Origin: Mobula hypostoma
Taxonomy: Eukaryota
Length of the DNA stretch: 64,000 nt
Direction of reading: 5' to 3'
NCBI RefSeq assembly: GCF_963921235.1
Contig: NC_086097.1
Location: 98,520,001-98,584,000, forward strand
Shown here one piece after another: positions 13,041-44,221 of this stretch. The position numbers and the translations under genes were made by a program. The notes beneath the pieces are model-generated. The model had not been told where the DNA came from. It ran no database searches and worked only from the letters and a program-made list of their open reading frames with translations. Positions within the stretch are counted from its first letter, which is position 1, and every line of letters starts with the position of its first letter.

Positions 13041-14978
13041 AACACACACAAAAAATGCTGGTGAACACAGCAGGCCAGGCAGCATCTATAGGAGGAGGTA
13101 CAGTCAACGTTTTGGGCCGAGACCCTTCGTCAGGACTAACTGAAAGAAGAAATAGTAAGAGATTTGAAAGTGGGGGGGGAGAGGGGGAGATCTGAAATGA
13201 TAGGAGAAGACAGGAGGGGGAGGGATGGAGCTAAGAGCTGGAAAGTTGATTAGCAAAAGGGATACGAGACTGGAGAAGGGAGAGGATCATAGGATGGGAG
13301 GCCTAGGGAGAAAGAAAGGGGGGGGAGCCCAGAGGATGGGCAAGGAGTTATAGTGAGAAGGACAGAGGGAGGAAAAAAAAGGGGGAAATTAATAAATAAG
13401 GGGTGGGGTACGAGGGGGAGGTGGGGCATTAACGGAAGTTAGAGAAATCAATGTTCATGCCATCAGGTTGGAGGCTACCCAGACGGAATATAAGATGTTG
13501 TTCCTCCAATCTGAGTGTGGCTTCATCTTGACAGTAGAGGAGGCCGTGGATAGACATCTCAGAATGGGAATGGGATGTGGAATTAAAATGTGTGGCCACT
13601 GGGAGATCCTGCTTTCTCTGGCAGACAGAGCATAGGTGTTCAGCGAAACGGTCTCCCAGCCTGTGTCGGGTCTCACCAATATATAGAAGGCCGCATCGGG
13701 AGCACCGGACGCAGTATATCACCCCAGCCGACTCACAAGTGAAGTGCCGTCTCACCTGGAAGGACTGTCTGGGGCCCTGAATGGTGGTGAGGGAGGAAGT
13801 GTAAGGGCATGTGTAGCACTTGTTCTGCTTACAAGGGTAAGTGCTGGGAGGGAGATCGGTGGGAAGGGATGGGGGGGGAACGAATGGACAAGGGAGTCAG
13901 GTAGGGAGCAATCCCCGCGGAAAGCAGAAGGGGTGGGAGGGAAAGATGTGCTTAGTGGTGGGATCCCGCTGGAGGTGGCGGAAGTTACAGAGAATAATAT
14001 GTTGGACCTGGAGGCTGGTGGGGTGGTGGTGAGGCCGAGGGGAGCCCTATTCCTAGTGGGGTGGCGGGAGGATGGGGTGAGAGCAGATGTGCCTGAAATG
14101 GGAGAGATGCGTTTGAGAGCAGAGTTGATGGTGGAGGAAGGGAAGCCCCTTTCTCTAAAAAGGGACATCTCCCTCGTCCTGGAATGAAAAGCCTCATCCT
14201 GAGAGCAGATGCGGCGGAGACGGAGGAATTGCGAGAAGGGGATGGCATTTTTGCAAGAGACAGGGTGGGAAGCGGAATACTCCAGGTAGCTGTGAGAGTC
14301 CGTAGGCTTATAGTAGACATCAGTGGATAAGCTGTCTCCAGAGACAGAGACAGAACGATCAAGAAAGGGCAGACAGGTGTCGGAAATGGACCAGGTAAAT
14401 TTGAGGGCAGGGTGGAAGTTGGAGGCAAAGTTAATGAAGTCAACGAGCTCAGCAGGCGTGCAGGAAGCAGCGCCAATGCAGTCGTCGATGTAGCAAAGGA
14501 AAAGTGGGGGACAGATACCAGAATAGGTTTGGAACATGGATTGTTCCACAAAGCCAAAAAAAAGGCAGGCATAGCTAGGACCCATACGGGTGCCCATGGC
14601 TACACCTTTAGTTTGGAGGAAGTGGGAGGAGCCAAAGGAGAAATTATTAAGAGTAAGGACTAATTCCGCTAGAAGGAGGAGAGTGGTGGTAGAAGGGAAC
14701 TGGTTAAGTCTGGAATCCAAAAAGAAGTGGAGAGCTTTGAGACCTTCCTGGTGGGGGATGGAGGTATACAGGGACTGGACATCCATGGTGAAAATAAAGC
14801 AGTGAGGGCCAGGGAACTTAAAATCATTGAAAAAATTCAGCGTGAGAGGTGTCACGAACATCGGTGGGAAGGGATTGAACAAGGGGGGATAAAACAGTGT
14901 TGAGGTATGCAGAAATGAGTTCAGTGGGGCAGGAGCAAGCTGAGACAATGCGTCTACCTGGACAGACAGGTTTGTGGA
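13041..14978 (-). mobile_element. Penelope-like element (RT + GIY-YIG endonuclease + terminal repeat), frameshifted
   Basis: ORF 13752-14981 MDVQSLYTSIPH, GVAMGTRMGPSYA, YIDD; ORF 13429-13755 GVIYCVRCSRCGLLYIGET; flanked by old CR1 sequence. Confidence 0.92.
13102..13137 (-). ncRNA. Minimal type-I hammerhead ribozyme motif (mutated) in the Penelope terminal repeat
   Basis: Minus strand AGUC-CUGACGA-AGGGUCUCGGCCC-AAAA-CGUU-GACU; core GAAA changed to AAAA. Confidence 0.7.
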
Positions 14979-15778
14979 CATAATCCAGGTTTGGTCTCAA
15001 CAGAGCTCTACATTAAGGTATCTTTGCTCTTGTGTTCAAATCCTCTTGCAATAAAGGGCAACACAATATTTACTATTCTAATTTCTTCCTGCATCTGCAA
15101 ATTAAGTGAGTGATATACAAGCATTCTTTGAGACCTTTGGTACTTGTAAGTACCGAAGGCCTCAGCAGCTGTATCTGTAAAACCAGACTAGTTGCAGCTT
15201 CACCCAAAATGACCCTCTGTCATTCTGTGCAGTGTACAGTTTGTTAATCGGTCCTTAATCCATGCTGGTAATCACCTCTAATACAAGACATTCTAATTTT
15301 GTGTAAAGCACTGGTACCTGGCTTTGTATTTGAAATGTGTTTCCAGGAATGATAACTCTAGTTGAGTTAGAATGTGTAACACTGCAGCACACATACAGGC
15401 TCGTTAGCCCACAATATTGTACTGAACAAATTAAACTAGTAATTAAATGCTTAAACTAATCTCTTTTGCCTACATCGTGTCTATATCCTTCCATTGTAGA
15501 GACATTTTCAAATACCTATCTACAATCCTTTTAAATGTCTCTTTCATATTTGTCCTCAATACCACCCTGGCAATGCATTCCAGGCACCCACCATTCTGTG
15601 TACATATATAACAGGAAGATGCCCTGCACATCTCATTTGTTGGAACCAAAAGACCCTCTGTACCTCAAACACTGTTAAGAATATTTGATCTGTCACAAGT
15701 CACCTCACATTTGGCCAGATTAAACTTTCATCTACCATATCTCTGCCCATGTCTACAACTGATCTGTATCAGTTGTAT

Positions 15779-15963
15779 GGGGCGTCAGGGAGGGGTAGCA
15801 CCTCTGGTGGGGGAACATGTCGCGTCCTTTTCAAGGCGGTTTGTCCACCTCTGGTCCCCACCTGTCACTCAGCTCTCACCTGTGGCTCCCTGTAGCTGTT
15901 TGCATGTGACAGCGGCCACACCCTGGGCGACGGCTTCAACAAGCCGGCTAAACCGGGTGAGGG
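15779..15963 (+). ncRNA. HDV-like self-cleaving ribozyme at the RTE 5' end
   Basis: P1, P1.1, P2, P3, P4 and J4/2 GCUAA all assignable by hand in HDV order (see findings). Confidence 0.78.
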
Positions 15964-17360
15964 TAGCCGACGGGTCTCAAACCCTCGGTGAGATAGGGAG
16001 TTGTCTATCCCTGCATGTGAAGACAGACTCCGGCGGATTGAGCAGATGAGACCAATGGTAGGTCCAACAGTCAAGAAGGCGGTCTCTGCAAGCGTCGTAG
16101 AACGCGTAGAGCAGGACAAGACACAGAAGATGTTCTGGTCATCCACTGCGCCTAGTCTCATCTCCAGCCGTCTCGACTCTGTCTTGCCATTGGATCCAGA
16201 TGGGAATTGGGAAGAGAGAGTGAGGCTGACGCTGCACAACTCTCCCTCACTTAAATCCAAATCAAGCGCTAGTCTTGACACCATCATCATCACCCTCAAC
16301 CTTTGAAGTCCTGTGGCGATGGGGGAGCGACGAAGCAGCTGGTGTGGATACACTGGGAGCTGTAGTCACGGACCTGCACACAGGTGGCTCAGGTCTAATA
16401 GTCGCTTTTCGCTGACTGAAGCAGCAGTGAAACTCGGCGTCTATCTGGGCGACTGAGCAGCCCTCTTTAGGAACGCGTAGCTCACCTCCGTAGTATGAGG
16501 AAGGGGGCTAGAAAAGGTGCCCTAAACATTACCTGCTTCATTACACCCTGCCCAGTTTACCGCGGCTGGTGGGGATCCTATCTTGGCGGTCGAAAAAACA
16601 CAATGAAACGCAAGGTGATACCGCTCACCATTGGCACTTGGAACGTGCACACACTATTGGACAACCCTACAGCAAACAGACTAGAGAGAAAAACAGTCTT
16701 AGTTGCCTGAGAGCTTGCAAGATACAACATTGACATTGCAGCCCTGAGTGAGACTCGTCTTGCCAACGAAGGTCAGCTGACTGAAACTGGAGTGAAGTGG
16801 TCGTGGCAGCAATGAGCGTCGTGAGGCTGGAGTTGGATTCGCTTTCAGGAGTCACCTTGTTCGGAAACTTGCTAGTCTCCCCAAGGGTGTGAACGACCGG
16901 CTCATGACACTACAGCTTCTGCTACAGAACAGAAGTCAAGCCACCCAGATCAGTGCCTAAGCCCCCACAGTGACCAACTTGGATGTAACAAAAGACAGGT
17001 TCTATGAAGAACTGGATGCTGTACTATCAGCAGTGAGCAGCACGGACAAGCTGATCTTGCTGGGCGACTTCAATGCAAGAGTAGGGTGCGATTCTGCAGC
17101 CTGGCAGGGAGTCGTTGGGAGTCACGGAGTGGGCAAATGTAACAGTAACGGCCTACTCTTACTAAAGACCTGTGCAGCACACGACCAGCTCATCACCAAC
17201 ACAACTTTCCGCTTGCCTACCTGTAACAAGACCTCCTGGATGCACCCCCGCTCTAAGTATTGGCATCTTATCGACTATGTCATTGTCAGGAGAAAAGACA
17301 GGCAGGATGTCAGAGTGACCAAGGCCATGACTGCTGGACAGATCACAAGCTCATTGTGGT
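15779..17360 (+). mobile_element. RTE-clade LINE: 5' UTR plus APE endonuclease, 3'-truncated
   Basis: From ATG 16603: PLTIGTWNVHTL...ELARYNIDIAALSETRL; ORF 16970-17422 LILLGDFNARVG...SWMHPRSKYWHLIDYVIVR; contains stops and frameshifts. Confidence 0.9.
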
Positions 17361-18489
17361 CACCATTTCATTTCAGCTGGAGTATTAATGGCAGACAGTT
17401 TTGCACCAGGTTTCCAAAATAAATACAAAATGAATACAAAATAAAGATCTGGTTGTTACTCATCAAAGACTGTTTCTTACTCTATTCCTTGCAACCTCAC
17501 AAAACTCTGATTTGTGAACCATGATTTCCTTCTGATTAATCCATGTTGACTCAGTCCAATCCTATTGTTTTCTATGACCCTGTTATCATTTCCTTCATAA
17601 TTAAAAACATTTTCGTACGACTGATTTTTGGAATAACTAGCCTACAGTTTCCCAGCCTTTGACTTGGTCTTGTCACTACAAATTCCATTCCTGCAAGCAT
17701 GAACTCTGTTGTTGGATGAGTTGAGAATGGGTCTGATATGTCTGTGATTGTTATTAAACATCCCCATTTTTGACCTTGTAATATGGGGAAGGTCAATGAG
17801 GAAGTAGTGTGAATCACTCAAAAGTGATTGAGTATAGTTTGCTGTAAAGAGCTCTTGCATTAATGCTCTGAGGCTGAGATTGCACTCCCAACGTGTTTTT
17901 TTCCCTTGAAAGTGTCCCCGGATTGTCATTCACTCCATTGTCACTGGGGCACCTGCTGTGATGAAGTGCAGCACTGATGGTCAGGGTAGTCACTGTCATT
18001 TCATCTTATCTCTGAAACATGGCTCTGAGAGTCATCCTTCATTGGGACTCTTGCAGTGTTTTTTTTTAATCTGGTTAACCCCGTGCGTTGCTTTTAAATA
18101 TTTAAATGTCCAGGCTGACAAATAGAAATTGGTATCAATCTACAGCTTCTCATCGTTGATAGCTGCTGGGTGAGTCGCATTCTGCTTGATAAGAGGACTA
18201 ACTGAGCCCTTGATTAAAAACTTTTAAAGAATTTTGGTCTGTCCAAAAGGATACTGTTCCAGCAAACTGGAAATGCAACCCGCTACAGATAGATGGGACT
18301 GAGGGATCAAAGGTGTCTCAAACTTATTTGTGTGTAATTGACATAAGAGCAAAAATGACTTAAAAGCAAGAGTCTGCATATTCACAATTTTGTGACTATT
18401 GTGTGTGTGGGCACTCCACAATTTTGCTCCAAATCCTGTTGATATCATTGTCCAGTCCCAAGTACGGAGGGGTAGCAACAGTCGAGGAA

Positions 18490-41309: not shown

Positions 41310-41382
41310 GACGGATATCTTTGTCTTCCTACTCAGCACCAGAGCTGGCGGCCTTGGCATCAATTTAACAGCTGCTGATACA
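41310..41382 (+). CDS. INO80: INO80 coding exon (helicase motif V)
   Basis: caacag|G acceptor, ACA|gtaagg donor; (R)[24 protein letters not shown]. Confidence 0.97.
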
Positions 41383-43840: not shown

Positions 43841-43940
43841 CGTAACTGAATGCTCCTTTAAGAACTGCAGTTCCTTATTGCAAGGTGATTTGTGAAATTA
43901 TTGTGGTAGGTATCTTTTTTGAAGTTGACTTTCATTTCAG

Positions 43941-44099
43941 GTTATATTTTATGACAATGATTGGAATCCAACAGTGGATCAACAGGCTATGGATCGAGCT
44001 CATAGGCTGGGTCAGACCAAACAAGTAACTGTATATCGACTCATCTGCAAGGGAACGATTGAGGAACGAATCTTGCAGCGTGCAAAGGAAAAGAGTGAG
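43941..44099 (+). CDS. INO80: INO80 coding exon (helicase motif VI)
   Basis: tttcag|GTT acceptor, GAG|gtacag donor; [53 protein letters not shown]. Confidence 0.97.
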
Positions 44100-44221
44100 G
44101 TACAGTGACATACTAGCATGCACAGAAGATATTTATTAAGTCGTTTTGAGTTCTACAGTGTTGAAGTACTTGGAACACATTCATTCTAGAAAGACCGTGG
44201 CTAGAAAATATTGCTGTAAAT

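What the first reader, a model, noticed from the sequence alone, without database searches (positions are those of the whole stretch)
15779..15963. HDV-like self-cleaving ribozyme at the RTE 5' end, sense to the INO80 pre-mRNA
Seen, in HDV order: P1 GGGGCGU (15779-85) pairs with ACACCCU (15918-24), with a G1-U wobble at the cleavage site and one C-A mismatch. P2 CUCUCACCUG (15873-82) pairs with CGGGUGAGGG (15954-63). P3 is GGC (15884-86)/GCC (15915-17). L3 is UCCCUGUA (HDV genomic UCCUCGCU; U20 and G25 kept), and its CC can pair with GG 15925-26 (P1.1). The junction GCGA resembles HDV GCAA. P4 is CGGCUU/AAGCCG (15931-46). J4/2 is GCUAA, with the putative catalytic C at 15948. The 87-nt J1/2 has its own helix GGUGGGG/CCCCACC (15806-12/15856-62). 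G1 coincides with where flanking CR1-like sequence stops. Known: HDV-like ribozymes process 5' ends of R2, RTE and L1Tc elements, mostly described in invertebrates and protists, and an intronic one exists in mammalian CPEB3. Inference: this vertebrate RTE family liberates its 5' end from host transcripts by self-cleavage, and this copy could cut nascent INO80 RNA in its longest intron in this window.
Basis: partly seen in the sequence, partly recalled or inferred. Interest (0 to 1): 0.9.

Follow-up and report, generated by a model that had tools for sequence, protein, structure and literature searches.

The report
HDV-like ribozyme heading a LINE family
The 5' end of an abundant jumping-gene family in this vertebrate genome folds like the self-cutting RNA of hepatitis delta virus, a known trick of such elements, but the copy in this window has lost the first bases it needs and probably no longer cuts.

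Summary

The motif heads a ~4.1 kb single-ORF (endonuclease + RT) LINE and its ~570 bp deletion derivative. A 35-mer from the family has 2855 genome matches.

The 7-mer GGGGUGU occurs twice. Copies begin at the first one. In 1643 exact hits the second 7-mer is preceded by T, as in the leader; in only 50 by another base. The second 7-mer sits in a stem of the J1/2 domain.

Two diverged sister families in the same genome, and relatives on metagenome contigs, keep the core: L3 U-C-C-N-N-G, GG for P1.1, and J4/2 G-C-N-A-A. Their helices covary: P2 in 10 of 10 pairs, P3 in 2 of 3, P4 in 6 of 6. P1 shows one position-specific compensatory change.

What is unusual is a ~20-nt hairpin inserted at the 3' side of L3. 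Some relatives lack it.

No Rfam HDV model matches. No RNA or cleavage data were available.

The window copy sits in sense in an INO80 intron. It lacks the first four bases, and its substitute P1 has a mismatch.

Verdict: a real, new member of a known kind. The scan had not noted this sequence before.

The parts
15771..17357 (+). Old copy of the ~4.1 kb single-ORF LINE (family A, long form). It covers roughly the first 1620 nt of the element and is 89% identical to copy L047. The rest is missing.
   Evidence: blastn of L047 element against the window
15770..15778 (+). Remnant of the family's 5' terminus. Intact copies read GGGGTGTAT here (P1 5' strand = first 7 nt). The window reads CAGTTGTAT, so only 4 of 7 P1 pairs can form.
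15779..15785 (+). In the family it reads GGGGTGT; here GGGGCGT. Its 3' part belongs to the basal stem of the J1/2 domain.
15782..15868 (+). Structured J1/2 domain. Its basal stem is 15782-89 with 15861-68 (element 13-20/92-99). The window copy has two disrupted pairs in that stem (15783, 15865).
   Evidence: G96>A in another organism
15873..15882 (+). P2 5' strand
15884..15886 (+). P3 5' strand (GGC)
15887..15894 (+). L3 proper, U-C-C-N-N-G-U-A. The CC at 15888-89 pairs with GG at 15925-26 (P1.1). Only the two N vary between families.
15895..15914 (+). Hairpin inserted between L3 and the P3 3' strand (5 bp stem, 9-nt loop with palindrome GCAUGY) plus one G. Not part of the canonical HDV fold. 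Absent from relatives L095, L140, L152, L111 and others.
15915..15917 (+). P3 3' strand (GCC)
15918..15924 (+). P1 3' strand (ACACCCT here; ACACCCC in most copies)
15925..15930 (+). P1.1 GG followed by the J1.1/4 junction (GCGA here; GCAA in most copies)
15931..15946 (+). P4 hairpin (6 bp). It covaries between families.
15947..15953 (+). J4/2, GCUAAAC, with the putative catalytic C at 15948
15954..15963 (+). P2 3' strand
43929..44105 (+). Open frame holding an INO80 exon (helicase C lobe). It shows that the host gene runs on the + strand through the window.
   Evidence: upstream exons

Best explanation
The first ~194 nt of this LINE family form an HDV-like double-pseudoknot ribozyme. The family comprises a ~4.1 kb single-ORF endonuclease+RT element of RTE-like build and its ~570 bp internally deleted, non-autonomous derivative.

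Element numbering (window coordinate = 15769 + position):
- P1: 1-7 with 149-155
- Structured J1/2 domain: 8-103
- P2: 104-113 with 185-194
- P3: 115-117 with 146-148
- L3: 118-125
- Extra hairpin: 126-144
- P1.1: 119-120 with 156-157
- P4: 162-177
- J4/2: 178-184, with the catalytic C at 179

Inferred mechanism. The element has no promoter of its own and is read through from host transcription. The RNA cuts itself 5' of G1, which frees a 5'-OH element RNA. That RNA is then translated and reverse-transcribed at a new site, so new copies start at G1.

Shown here: the fold, its conservation and covariation, and the 5' ends of copies. Inferred, not shown: catalysis, co-transcription, and any role in translation.

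The window's own copy is a decayed, 5'-nibbled and 3'-deleted member. It most likely does not cleave.
For: 1. Copy ends.
- In a position-ordered sample of 29 other copies, 15 start with exactly GGGG+TGTAT (or TATAT).
- 3 more have 5 G, and 3 have a mutated G-run.
- 6 have 1-3 G, 1 is truncated at about position 13, and 1 is odd.
- None starts at the second 7-mer.
- Genome-wide, 805 exact hits have non-G + GGGGTGTATGGGG....
- The second 7-mer is preceded by T in 1643 exact hits and by A/C/G in 50.
- Upstream flanks are unrelated between copies.

2. The majority sequence repairs the window's defects. P1 becomes 7 perfect pairs, and the P2 U-G becomes U-A.

3. Three families in this genome, about 74% alike, compared by majority sequence.
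- No difference in the strands of P1, P2, P3 and P1.1, apart from a decayed first base in family B.
- 15-23 of 108 columns differ in the rest of J1/2, 3-7 of 16 in P4, and 2-3 of 4 in J1.1/4.
- L3 varies only at its two N positions.
- P4 has changes on both sides in 5 of 6 pairs.
- The J1/2 basal stem is re-paired by compensating changes (GUGUCAGG/CCUGGCAC against GUGUCCAG/CUGGACAC).

4. Contig L091 has GUGGUGU at the homologous 5' position and ACACCAC as the P1 3' strand. That is a compensatory G-C to U-A change. Its second 7-mer cannot pair. L120 behaves likewise.

5. A covariance model built only from the hairpin-bearing forms was run with filters off on 11 loci chosen because the descriptor or an earlier model run had flagged them.
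- It finds cores at the descriptor's coordinates in L095, L140, L110, L127, L152, L141, L111 and L104 (E 9e-11 to 0.16).
- On that alignment 97% of cells pair, against 29-49% when the partner is slid.
- Both-side changes occur in P2 10/10, P3 2/3 and P4 6/6 pairs.
- These cores lie in the 5' UTR, roughly 390-770 nt upstream of where the ORF match begins.

6. Chance controls.

7. The deletion derivative keeps the 5' ~520 nt and the last ~50 nt. This is what one expects if both ends are needed in cis.
Against: - No cleavage assay was possible. No RNA data were obtained.
- No Rfam HDV-type model matches the window (E up to 10) or 11 relatives.
- L3 carries a ~20-nt insertion for which I found no precedent. 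It could have inactivated the ribozyme in this lineage.
- The base pair at the cleavage site is G-C in the family majority. The G-U seen in some copies looks like CpG decay.
- Within the three families of this genome, P1, P2, P3 and P1.1 never vary. Support for the pseudoknot helices therefore comes from more distant relatives.
- That alignment was fitted to the model's structure and contains one doubtful row (L110 371-415, E 0.93).
- P1 covariation rests on single contigs (L091, L120).
- In L104, L140, L141 and L152 no G-initiated perfect P1 partner was found within 260 nt. In L127 only 134 nt of upstream sequence were available to search.
- L143's core was not found by the model.
- The nested fold is not unusually stable (z = -0.86).
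- The base before G1 is T in 78 of the first 100 rows listed. A cleaved 5' end does not by itself predict that bias.
Confidence: 0.75

Rival explanations
1. A former ribozyme. The fold descends from an HDV-like ribozyme, but in this lineage (G1-C pair, hairpin inserted in L3) it no longer cleaves. It is kept as a structured 5' UTR for translation or protein binding, and the 5' end is set by an internal promoter that starts at G1.
For: The L3 insertion is not part of the canonical fold. No Rfam hit. No RNA or cleavage data. The base at -1 is strongly biased to T. Published work holds that HDV-like ribozymes in LINE 5' UTRs also serve translation, and that the same 77 nt in L1Tc is both promoter and ribozyme (passages of PMC6765202; abstract of PMC3383444 in the listing).
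Against: All positions that define the catalytic core are kept in three families and in the hairpin-bearing contigs: U, CC and G of L3, GG, and C-N-A-A of J4/2. The first 7 nt of the element are exactly the P1 strand and covary with it in L091. A promoter would not require that.
Confidence: 0.17
2. One reading: the ribozyme cleaves 5' of the second 7-mer (window 15779), with an 87-nt J1/2.
For: In families A, B and C the two 7-mers are identical, so either can pair with ACACCCC. In the window copy it is the only P1 strand left.
Against: Progeny of such a cut would begin at the second 7-mer. None of the 29 sampled copies does, and at most 50 of 1693 exact hits could. In L091 and L120 the second 7-mer cannot pair with the P1 3' strand while the first pairs 7/7. 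The second 7-mer takes part in a covarying J1/2 stem.
Confidence: 0.05
3. Chance resemblance of a G+C-rich 5' UTR to the HDV fold.
For: The descriptor was written after seeing the site. A scan of very many windows will turn up some core-only matches by chance (1 in 300 random windows of window composition, 6 in 300 of element composition). The nested fold has an ordinary energy.
Against: The site lies exactly at a repeat family's 5' end. The majority sequence improves the fold. The core is kept and the helices covary in relatives down to 43-52% protein identity.
Confidence: 0.02

Closest known systems
HDV-like ribozymes at the 5' ends of non-LTR retrotransposons (R2, R4/Dong, RTE, Baggins, L1Tc), from Ruminski et al. 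2011, J Biol Chem. That paper is not held here. I know it only as cited in PMC3774820 and PMC6765202 (passages read) and from recall.
   Same: A double-pseudoknot core in the 5' UTR. The predicted cut coincides with the element's 5' junction. The element lacks an evident promoter and sits in introns. The 3' end is a simple repeat.
   Different: An extra hairpin between L3 and the P3 3' strand. A G-C pair at the cleavage site in place of the usual wobble. The P1 7-mer is duplicated. The host is a vertebrate with thousands of copies. I could not check whether vertebrate RTE examples are already listed in that paper or its supplements.
drz-Agam-2-1, a large HDV-like ribozyme with a structured J1/2 domain and extended P2 (Webb et al. 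2016, PMC4908430; first of four parts read)
   Same: A long, base-paired J1/2 domain (here 96 nt) joined by short linkers, and a long P2 (10 bp here, 12 bp there).
   Different: A different host and a different sequence. No L3 insertion is described there. Activity there was measured; here it was not.
L1Tc/NARTc of Trypanosoma cruzi and the R2-derived SIDE elements (PMC3383444 and PMC3414825; abstracts seen in a search listing only)
   Same: A non-autonomous derivative keeps the autonomous element's 5' ribozyme region and its 3' end.
   Different: Here the derivative is a ~570 bp deletion form of an APE-type LINE that inserts genome-wide. No promoter function was tested.
CPEB3 intronic HDV-like ribozyme of mammals
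   Same: An HDV-like fold lying in sense in an intron of a host gene.
   Different: CPEB3 is a single conserved host locus. This is one decayed copy of a mobile family, and it lacks an intact P1.

Membership tests
HDV-like self-cleaving ribozymes | Nested double pseudoknot in the order P1-J1/2-P2-P3-L3-P3'-P1'-P1.1-P4-J4/2-P2' | tested here: met
   Coordinates checked. 90% of cells pair on 18 copies of three families, against 30-51% when slid. Descriptor hit.
HDV-like self-cleaving ribozymes | Cleavage site is the first nucleotide of P1 (in retrotransposons: the element's 5' end) | tested here: met
Met for the first 7-mer at family level. Cleavage itself was not observed.
HDV-like self-cleaving ribozymes | L3 with conserved U, two pyrimidines that form P1.1 with the two bases after P1, and a conserved G | tested here: met
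   U-C-C-N-N-G is kept in families A, B and C and in L091, L120, L095, L140, L152, L104, L110, L111, L127, L141 and L143. Only the N positions vary. That these are the defining positions is taken from passages of PMC3774820 and from recall.
HDV-like self-cleaving ribozymes | Closed L3 loop of about 7-8 nt | tested here: not met
   In families A, B, C, L091 and L120 a 17-19 nt hairpin plus one G lies between L3 and P3'. Relatives L095, L104, L110, L111, L127, L140, L141, L143 and L152 have 7-8 nt.
HDV-like self-cleaving ribozymes | J4/2 with a catalytic C followed by N-A-A | tested here: met
   G-C-U/C/G/A-A-A in all forms. The C is at least 90% conserved in 63 copies. Its catalytic role was not tested.
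HDV-like self-cleaving ribozymes | Covariation supporting P1, P2 and P3 | tested here: met
   Both-side changes in P2 10/10, P3 2/3 and P4 6/6 pairs on the model-fitted alignment A6. P1 has one position-specific compensatory change in L091 and an A-U at pair 1 in L120. P1.1 never varies.
HDV-like self-cleaving ribozymes | G-U wobble at the base of P1 | tested here: inconclusive
   The family majority is G-C (ACACCCC). G-U appears in copies where the CpG has decayed, including the window. Relatives L111, L127 and L143 have a U there.
HDV-like self-cleaving ribozymes | Match to a curated Rfam HDV-type covariance model | tested here: not met
   No such hit at E up to 10 in window 14000-18000 or in 11 related loci. 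Those models carry no pseudoknots and have narrow seeds.
HDV-like self-cleaving ribozymes | Site-specific self-scission giving a 5'-OH product | not testable with these tools
   No RNA holder was listed. Only contigs were laid.
RTE clade of non-LTR retrotransposons | A single ORF with AP-type endonuclease and RT, no large ORF1, a short 3' UTR ending in a simple repeat, overall length 3-4 kb | tested here: met
   ~4.09 kb between shared ends. Endonuclease and RT frames in L047 and L049, all broken. Intact ~1060-aa relatives carry PF03372, PF14529 and PF00078. (AAC)n-like tail. That these are the clade's traits is recalled, not checked in a paper.
RTE clade of non-LTR retrotransposons | Phylogenetic placement of the RT among reference RTE elements | not tested
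   No named reference sequences were at hand. Names returned do not give a clade.

The most novel reading that the evidence does not exclude
The HDV fold tolerates, and this LINE lineage has fixed, an extra helix inserted at the L3/P3 junction, next to the active site. The helix's loop carries a self-complementary hexamer (GCAUGC; ACAUGU in L091) that could let two element RNAs kiss. The ribozyme with this insertion is still active. If so, several thousand intronic sense copies in a vertebrate genome are potential cutters of host pre-mRNA. The duplicated P1 7-mer would act as a switch or as a spare cleavage strand.
Probability: 0.3. Interest if true: 0.65.

Novelty: new member of a known kind. 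Interest (0 to 1): 0.5.

Why it matters
It adds a very abundant vertebrate LINE family, and its short non-autonomous offspring, to the retrotransposons that appear to free their own 5' ends with an HDV-like ribozyme.

The family supplies a natural series of the same ribozyme with and without a helix inserted beside the active site. It also carries a duplicated substrate strand. Both give direct handles for testing how much the HDV core can be elaborated.

For genome annotation, 5' ends of this family can be called at base resolution. Rfam-based scans will miss these ribozymes.

For the host gene nothing follows: the INO80 copy is a relic.

Tried and rejected
- **Rfam, window.** cmscan of window 14000-18000 at E up to 10 gave no HDV-type family.
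- **Rfam, relatives.** The same on 11 related loci gave none. There were weak int-alpA-like hits in the J1/2 region of L127 and L140, taken as chance.
- **Nested fold.** The MFE fold of 15779-15963 has an ordinary energy.
- **RNAalifold.** On A2 it prefers a nested alternative (UGUGG/CCACA) to P3 and part of P1. Those columns are invariant, so the two cannot be told apart.
- **Covariation within family A.** 63 copies were aligned. Differences are neutral decay, so this is uninformative.
- **Sequencing runs.** No RNA holder was listed.
- **Laid contigs.** Contigs of four runs showed no places where molecules begin or end.
- **Strict descriptor.** With G1 and a perfect P1 required, it found 0 hits on the 80 metagenome loci. 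It was too rigid: a P2 bulge in L091, A at position 1 in L120, 6-bp P1 in others.
- **Relaxed descriptor.** The core-only version also gave two hits inside ORFs (L114, L132), taken as chance.
- **Chance word matches.** Three 'GGCTCCAAG' matches in L020, L046 and L047 were chance, not family copies.
- **L092.** Its match to the model (E 0.048) has a broken core and was not used as evidence.
- **Pfam on the window.** 150 + strand frames of window 1-22702 gave nothing at E up to 1e-4. The other 262 frames listed were not scanned. INO80 was shown by other means.
- **Earlier findings.** A search by sequence found 0 windows.
- **Papers.** Ruminski 2011 and Webb 2009 are not held. A search for vertebrate names with 'HDV-like ribozyme' returned only unrelated papers. 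A search for four phrasings of an L3 insertion together with 'HDV-like' and 'ribozyme' found 0 papers. That is weak evidence that none is in print.

Full report
**1.

All listed pairings are in the window at the stated places. These are P1 15779-85/15918-24 with one C-A mismatch, P2 15873-82/15954-63, P3 15884-86/15915-17, GG at 15925-26, P4 15931-46, the J4/2 C at 15948, and a helix inside J1/2.

Rfam finds no HDV-type family there even at E 10. The nested fold is no more stable than shuffles (z = -0.86).

I wrote a descriptor afterwards. It asks for P3, L3 starting TCC..G, GG after a 7-nt P1 strand, a P4 hairpin, C-N-A-A, P2 of at least 7 bp, and a G-initiated P1 strand within 120 nt. It allows up to 25 extra bases in L3. 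It finds this one site and no other in both strands of the window.

In 300 random 64-kb sequences of window composition it finds 1 core-only site and 0 full sites. In 300 of the element's own composition it finds 6 core-only, 2 full (at most 1 P1 mismatch) and 0 perfect. Over very many windows such chance cores will occur, so the case rests on what follows.

**2. What the element is**

The window is G000:C1:98520001-98584000 of a 3.48 Gb genome. The first 400 nt around the site have 4869 first-look candidates. All 39 other matches scored are 93-96% identical and begin at window 15774-15776 or nearby.

Two forms share the 5' ~520 nt.
- A ~570 bp form.
- A ~4.09 kb form with AP-endonuclease and RT frames, all broken in the copies I read.

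The two forms also share the last ~50 nt and a short (AAC)n-like tail. The short form is therefore an internal-deletion, non-autonomous derivative.

The window copy belongs to the long form. It is 89% identical to copy L047 and stops at element position ~1620 (window 17357).

Intact ~1060-aa relatives of the protein, at 65-80% identity to the RT piece, occur in turtles, a frog, a cyprinid, tapeworms, a snail and amphioxus. They also sit on many 4.0-4.4 kb assembly contigs. The build is RTE-like, but I made no tree.

**3. Where the family begins**

A 35-mer from J1/2 has 2855 genome matches with at most 2 mismatches, and 0 for the reversed control. The first 30 places in genome order gave 29 copies besides the window (two of them a duplicated pair). 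Their starts are as follows.
- 15 have exactly four G before TGTAT/TATAT.
- 3 have five G.
- 2 have three G, 3 have two, and 1 has one.
- 3 have a mutated G-run.
- 1 is truncated at about position 13, and 1 is odd.

Genome-wide counts agree. 805 exact matches have a non-G followed by GGGGTGTATGGGGTGTCAGGGAGGGG. The second 7-mer is preceded by T, as in the leader, in 1643 exact matches and by A, C or G in 50.

So the family's first base is the G nine bases upstream of the equivalent of 15779. The window copy reads CAGT where the four G should be.

**4. The fold in the family**

Numbering is from that G. In most copies P1 is GGGGUGU/ACACCCC (7 Watson-Crick pairs) and P2 has one wobble, not two. 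The majority thus repairs both defects of the window copy.

The second 7-mer overlaps an 8-bp stem (13-20 with 92-99) that closes a long J1/2 domain.

A large structured J1/2 and a long P2 are known from drz-Agam-2-1 (PMC4908430, part 1 read). I found no description of an L3 insertion (search found 0 papers, which is weak evidence).

**5. Sister families in the same genome**

Contigs of other organisms laid on a family copy showed diverged relatives with L3 U-C-C-A-A-G. A pattern for that variant has 3044 matches in this genome against 3 for the control.

They fall into two further families, B and C, about 74% identical to A.

Comparing family majorities:
- The strands of P1, P2, P3 and the P1.1 GG show no difference, apart from a decayed first base in B.
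- 15-23 of 108 columns differ in the rest of J1/2, 3-7 of 16 in P4, and 2-3 of 4 in J1.1/4.
- L3 differs only at its 4th and 5th positions.
- J4/2 is GCUAAAC or GCCAAAC.
- P4 reads CGGCUU/AAGCCG, CCGCUU/AGGCGG and CCGUCU/AGACGG in the three families.

On 18 copies, 5 of 6 P4 pairs and 1 of 5 hairpin pairs have changes on both sides. P1, P2, P3 and P1.1 have none.

The J1/2 basal stem is re-paired between A (GUGUCAGG/CCUGGCAC) and B (GUGUCCAG/CUGGACAC). All three families keep both 7-mers.

**6. More distant relatives**

A scan of metagenome contigs with an alignment of 14 intact proteins gave 80 loci at 30-74% identity.

Two of them, L091 and L120, align to the whole 5' region or its core.
- L091 has GUGGUGU at the homologous terminal position and ACACCAC as P1 3' strand. 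That is a compensatory change at pair 2. Its second 7-mer pairs at only 3 of 7 positions.
- L120 has AGGGUGU/ACACCCU (7/7), and again its second 7-mer fails to pair.
- L120 also turns a U-A of P2 into A-U and rebuilds P4.

I built a covariance model from 13 hairpin-bearing cores (P2, P3, hairpin, P4). With default filters it found 6 matches in the 80 loci.

With filters off on 11 chosen loci, it found cores in L095, L140, L110, L127, L152, L141, L111 and L104 at E 9e-11 to 0.16. It missed L143. These are the places that a core-only descriptor also finds, except L152, which that descriptor did not list.

These relatives have a 7-8 nt L3 with no hairpin. Their P2 and P3 sequences are quite different, for example GACCAACAUGA/UCAUGUUGGUC with ACC/GGU.

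On the model-fitted alignment 97% of cells pair, against 29-49% when slid. Both-side changes occur in 10/10 P2 pairs, 2/3 P3 pairs and 6/6 P4 pairs. The alignment leans towards the structure and holds one doubtful row.

All nine canonical-L3 descriptor hits lie in the 5' UTR, roughly 390-770 nt upstream of the ORF match.

G-initiated perfect P1 partners were found upstream in L110, L111 (inside a GT-rich run) and L143. None was found in L104, L140, L141 or L152. L127 has only 134 nt upstream. A partner of this kind is expected by chance in roughly one locus in five by my own estimate, so only the position-specific case of L091 carries weight.

**7. The window copy and INO80**

DBINO exons lie at C1:98425275-98430895 and SNF2 N-lobe exons at 98446251-98463035, both on the + strand.

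The window holds helicase C-lobe exons on the + strand near 41341 and at 43929-44105. The latter has INO80 as its best match among solved structures (E 2.4e-31).

The element is therefore intronic and in sense. But it lacks the P1 strand, its second 7-mer has a C-A mismatch, two pairs of its J1/2 basal stem are broken, and it is an old, 3'-deleted copy. I see no ground to expect that it cuts INO80 pre-mRNA.

**8. Mechanism, and what is shown**

Shown:
- An HDV-type double-pseudoknot core at the exact 5' end of a LINE family.
- The core is kept through family divergence, with covariation in P2, P3, P4, the J1/2 stem and one pair of P1.
- Copy 5' ends fall at the first base of P1.
- The region is retained in a non-autonomous derivative.

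Inferred from published work on R2, RTE and L1Tc elements (passages of PMC3774820 and PMC6765202): read-through transcription, self-cleavage 5' of G1, use of the 5'-OH RNA for translation and target-primed reverse transcription, and a few non-templated or missing bases at 5' junctions.

Not shown: catalysis.

**9. Comparison and novelty**

This is the known kind of system. PMC3774820 states that RTE ribozymes cleave at the element's 5' junction. PMC6765202 lists RTEs and Baggins as promoter-less elements with HDV-like ribozymes.

It differs by the helix inserted beside L3, the G-C pair at the cleavage site, the duplicated P1 7-mer, and its scale in a vertebrate genome. It is not picked up by Rfam models.

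Earlier notes of this scan on the same genome mention RTE-type LINEs and call the genome a ray's. I did not test either.

**10. Limits**

- Only 10 copies of families B and C could be read.
- The relatives from metagenome contigs are single sequences of unknown organisms.
- The key primary paper (Ruminski 2011) and its supplements could not be read. Vertebrate RTE examples or L3 insertions may already be in print.

Noticed in passing
family copies genome-wide; e.g. L051, L053, L054: The base just before the family's first G is T in 78, A in 16 and C in 6 of the first 100 listed exact matches. The bias is strong and unexplained. It could be a target-site preference, a templated U, or a non-templated A added to the cDNA at an uncapped RNA end.
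   Followed up: partly
window 15900-15908; L091 about 205-215: The loop of the hairpin inserted in L3 holds a self-complementary hexamer, GCAUGC in families A, B and C. L091 has ACAUGU at the same place, also self-complementary. L120 does not keep it. This could be a kissing-loop contact between two element RNAs.
   Followed up: no
L140 195-230: A distant relative also has a tandem duplication at its presumed 5' end (GGTGTGGTGG twice, 15 nt apart). It recalls the doubled 7-mer of the window's family.
   Followed up: no
window 13752-14996, minus strand: A 414-aa open frame with a weak RVT_1 match (E 9e-6) and a YIDD-type motif. This is another retroelement, lying just upstream of the LINE copy on the opposite strand.
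   Followed up: no
L090-L169: The LINE's protein is 65-80% identical across turtles, a frog, a cyprinid, tapeworms, a snail and amphioxus, and sits on many ~4.2 kb assembly contigs. The spread is patchy and wide enough to raise the question of horizontal transfer.
   Followed up: no
L047 550-1100 against L090-L169: The stretch between the ribozyme and the endonuclease (element ~370-930) is conserved at 60-78% nucleotide identity in many distant relatives. It holds a ~105-aa frame with no Pfam match, so it may encode a small protein.
   Followed up: no
L127 47-133; L140 301-376: The region just upstream of P2 in two relatives gives weak, sub-threshold matches to the bacterial int-alpA RNA model (E 0.34 and 0.81). 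I take these as chance, but they point to a shared three-helix J1/2 domain.
   Followed up: no
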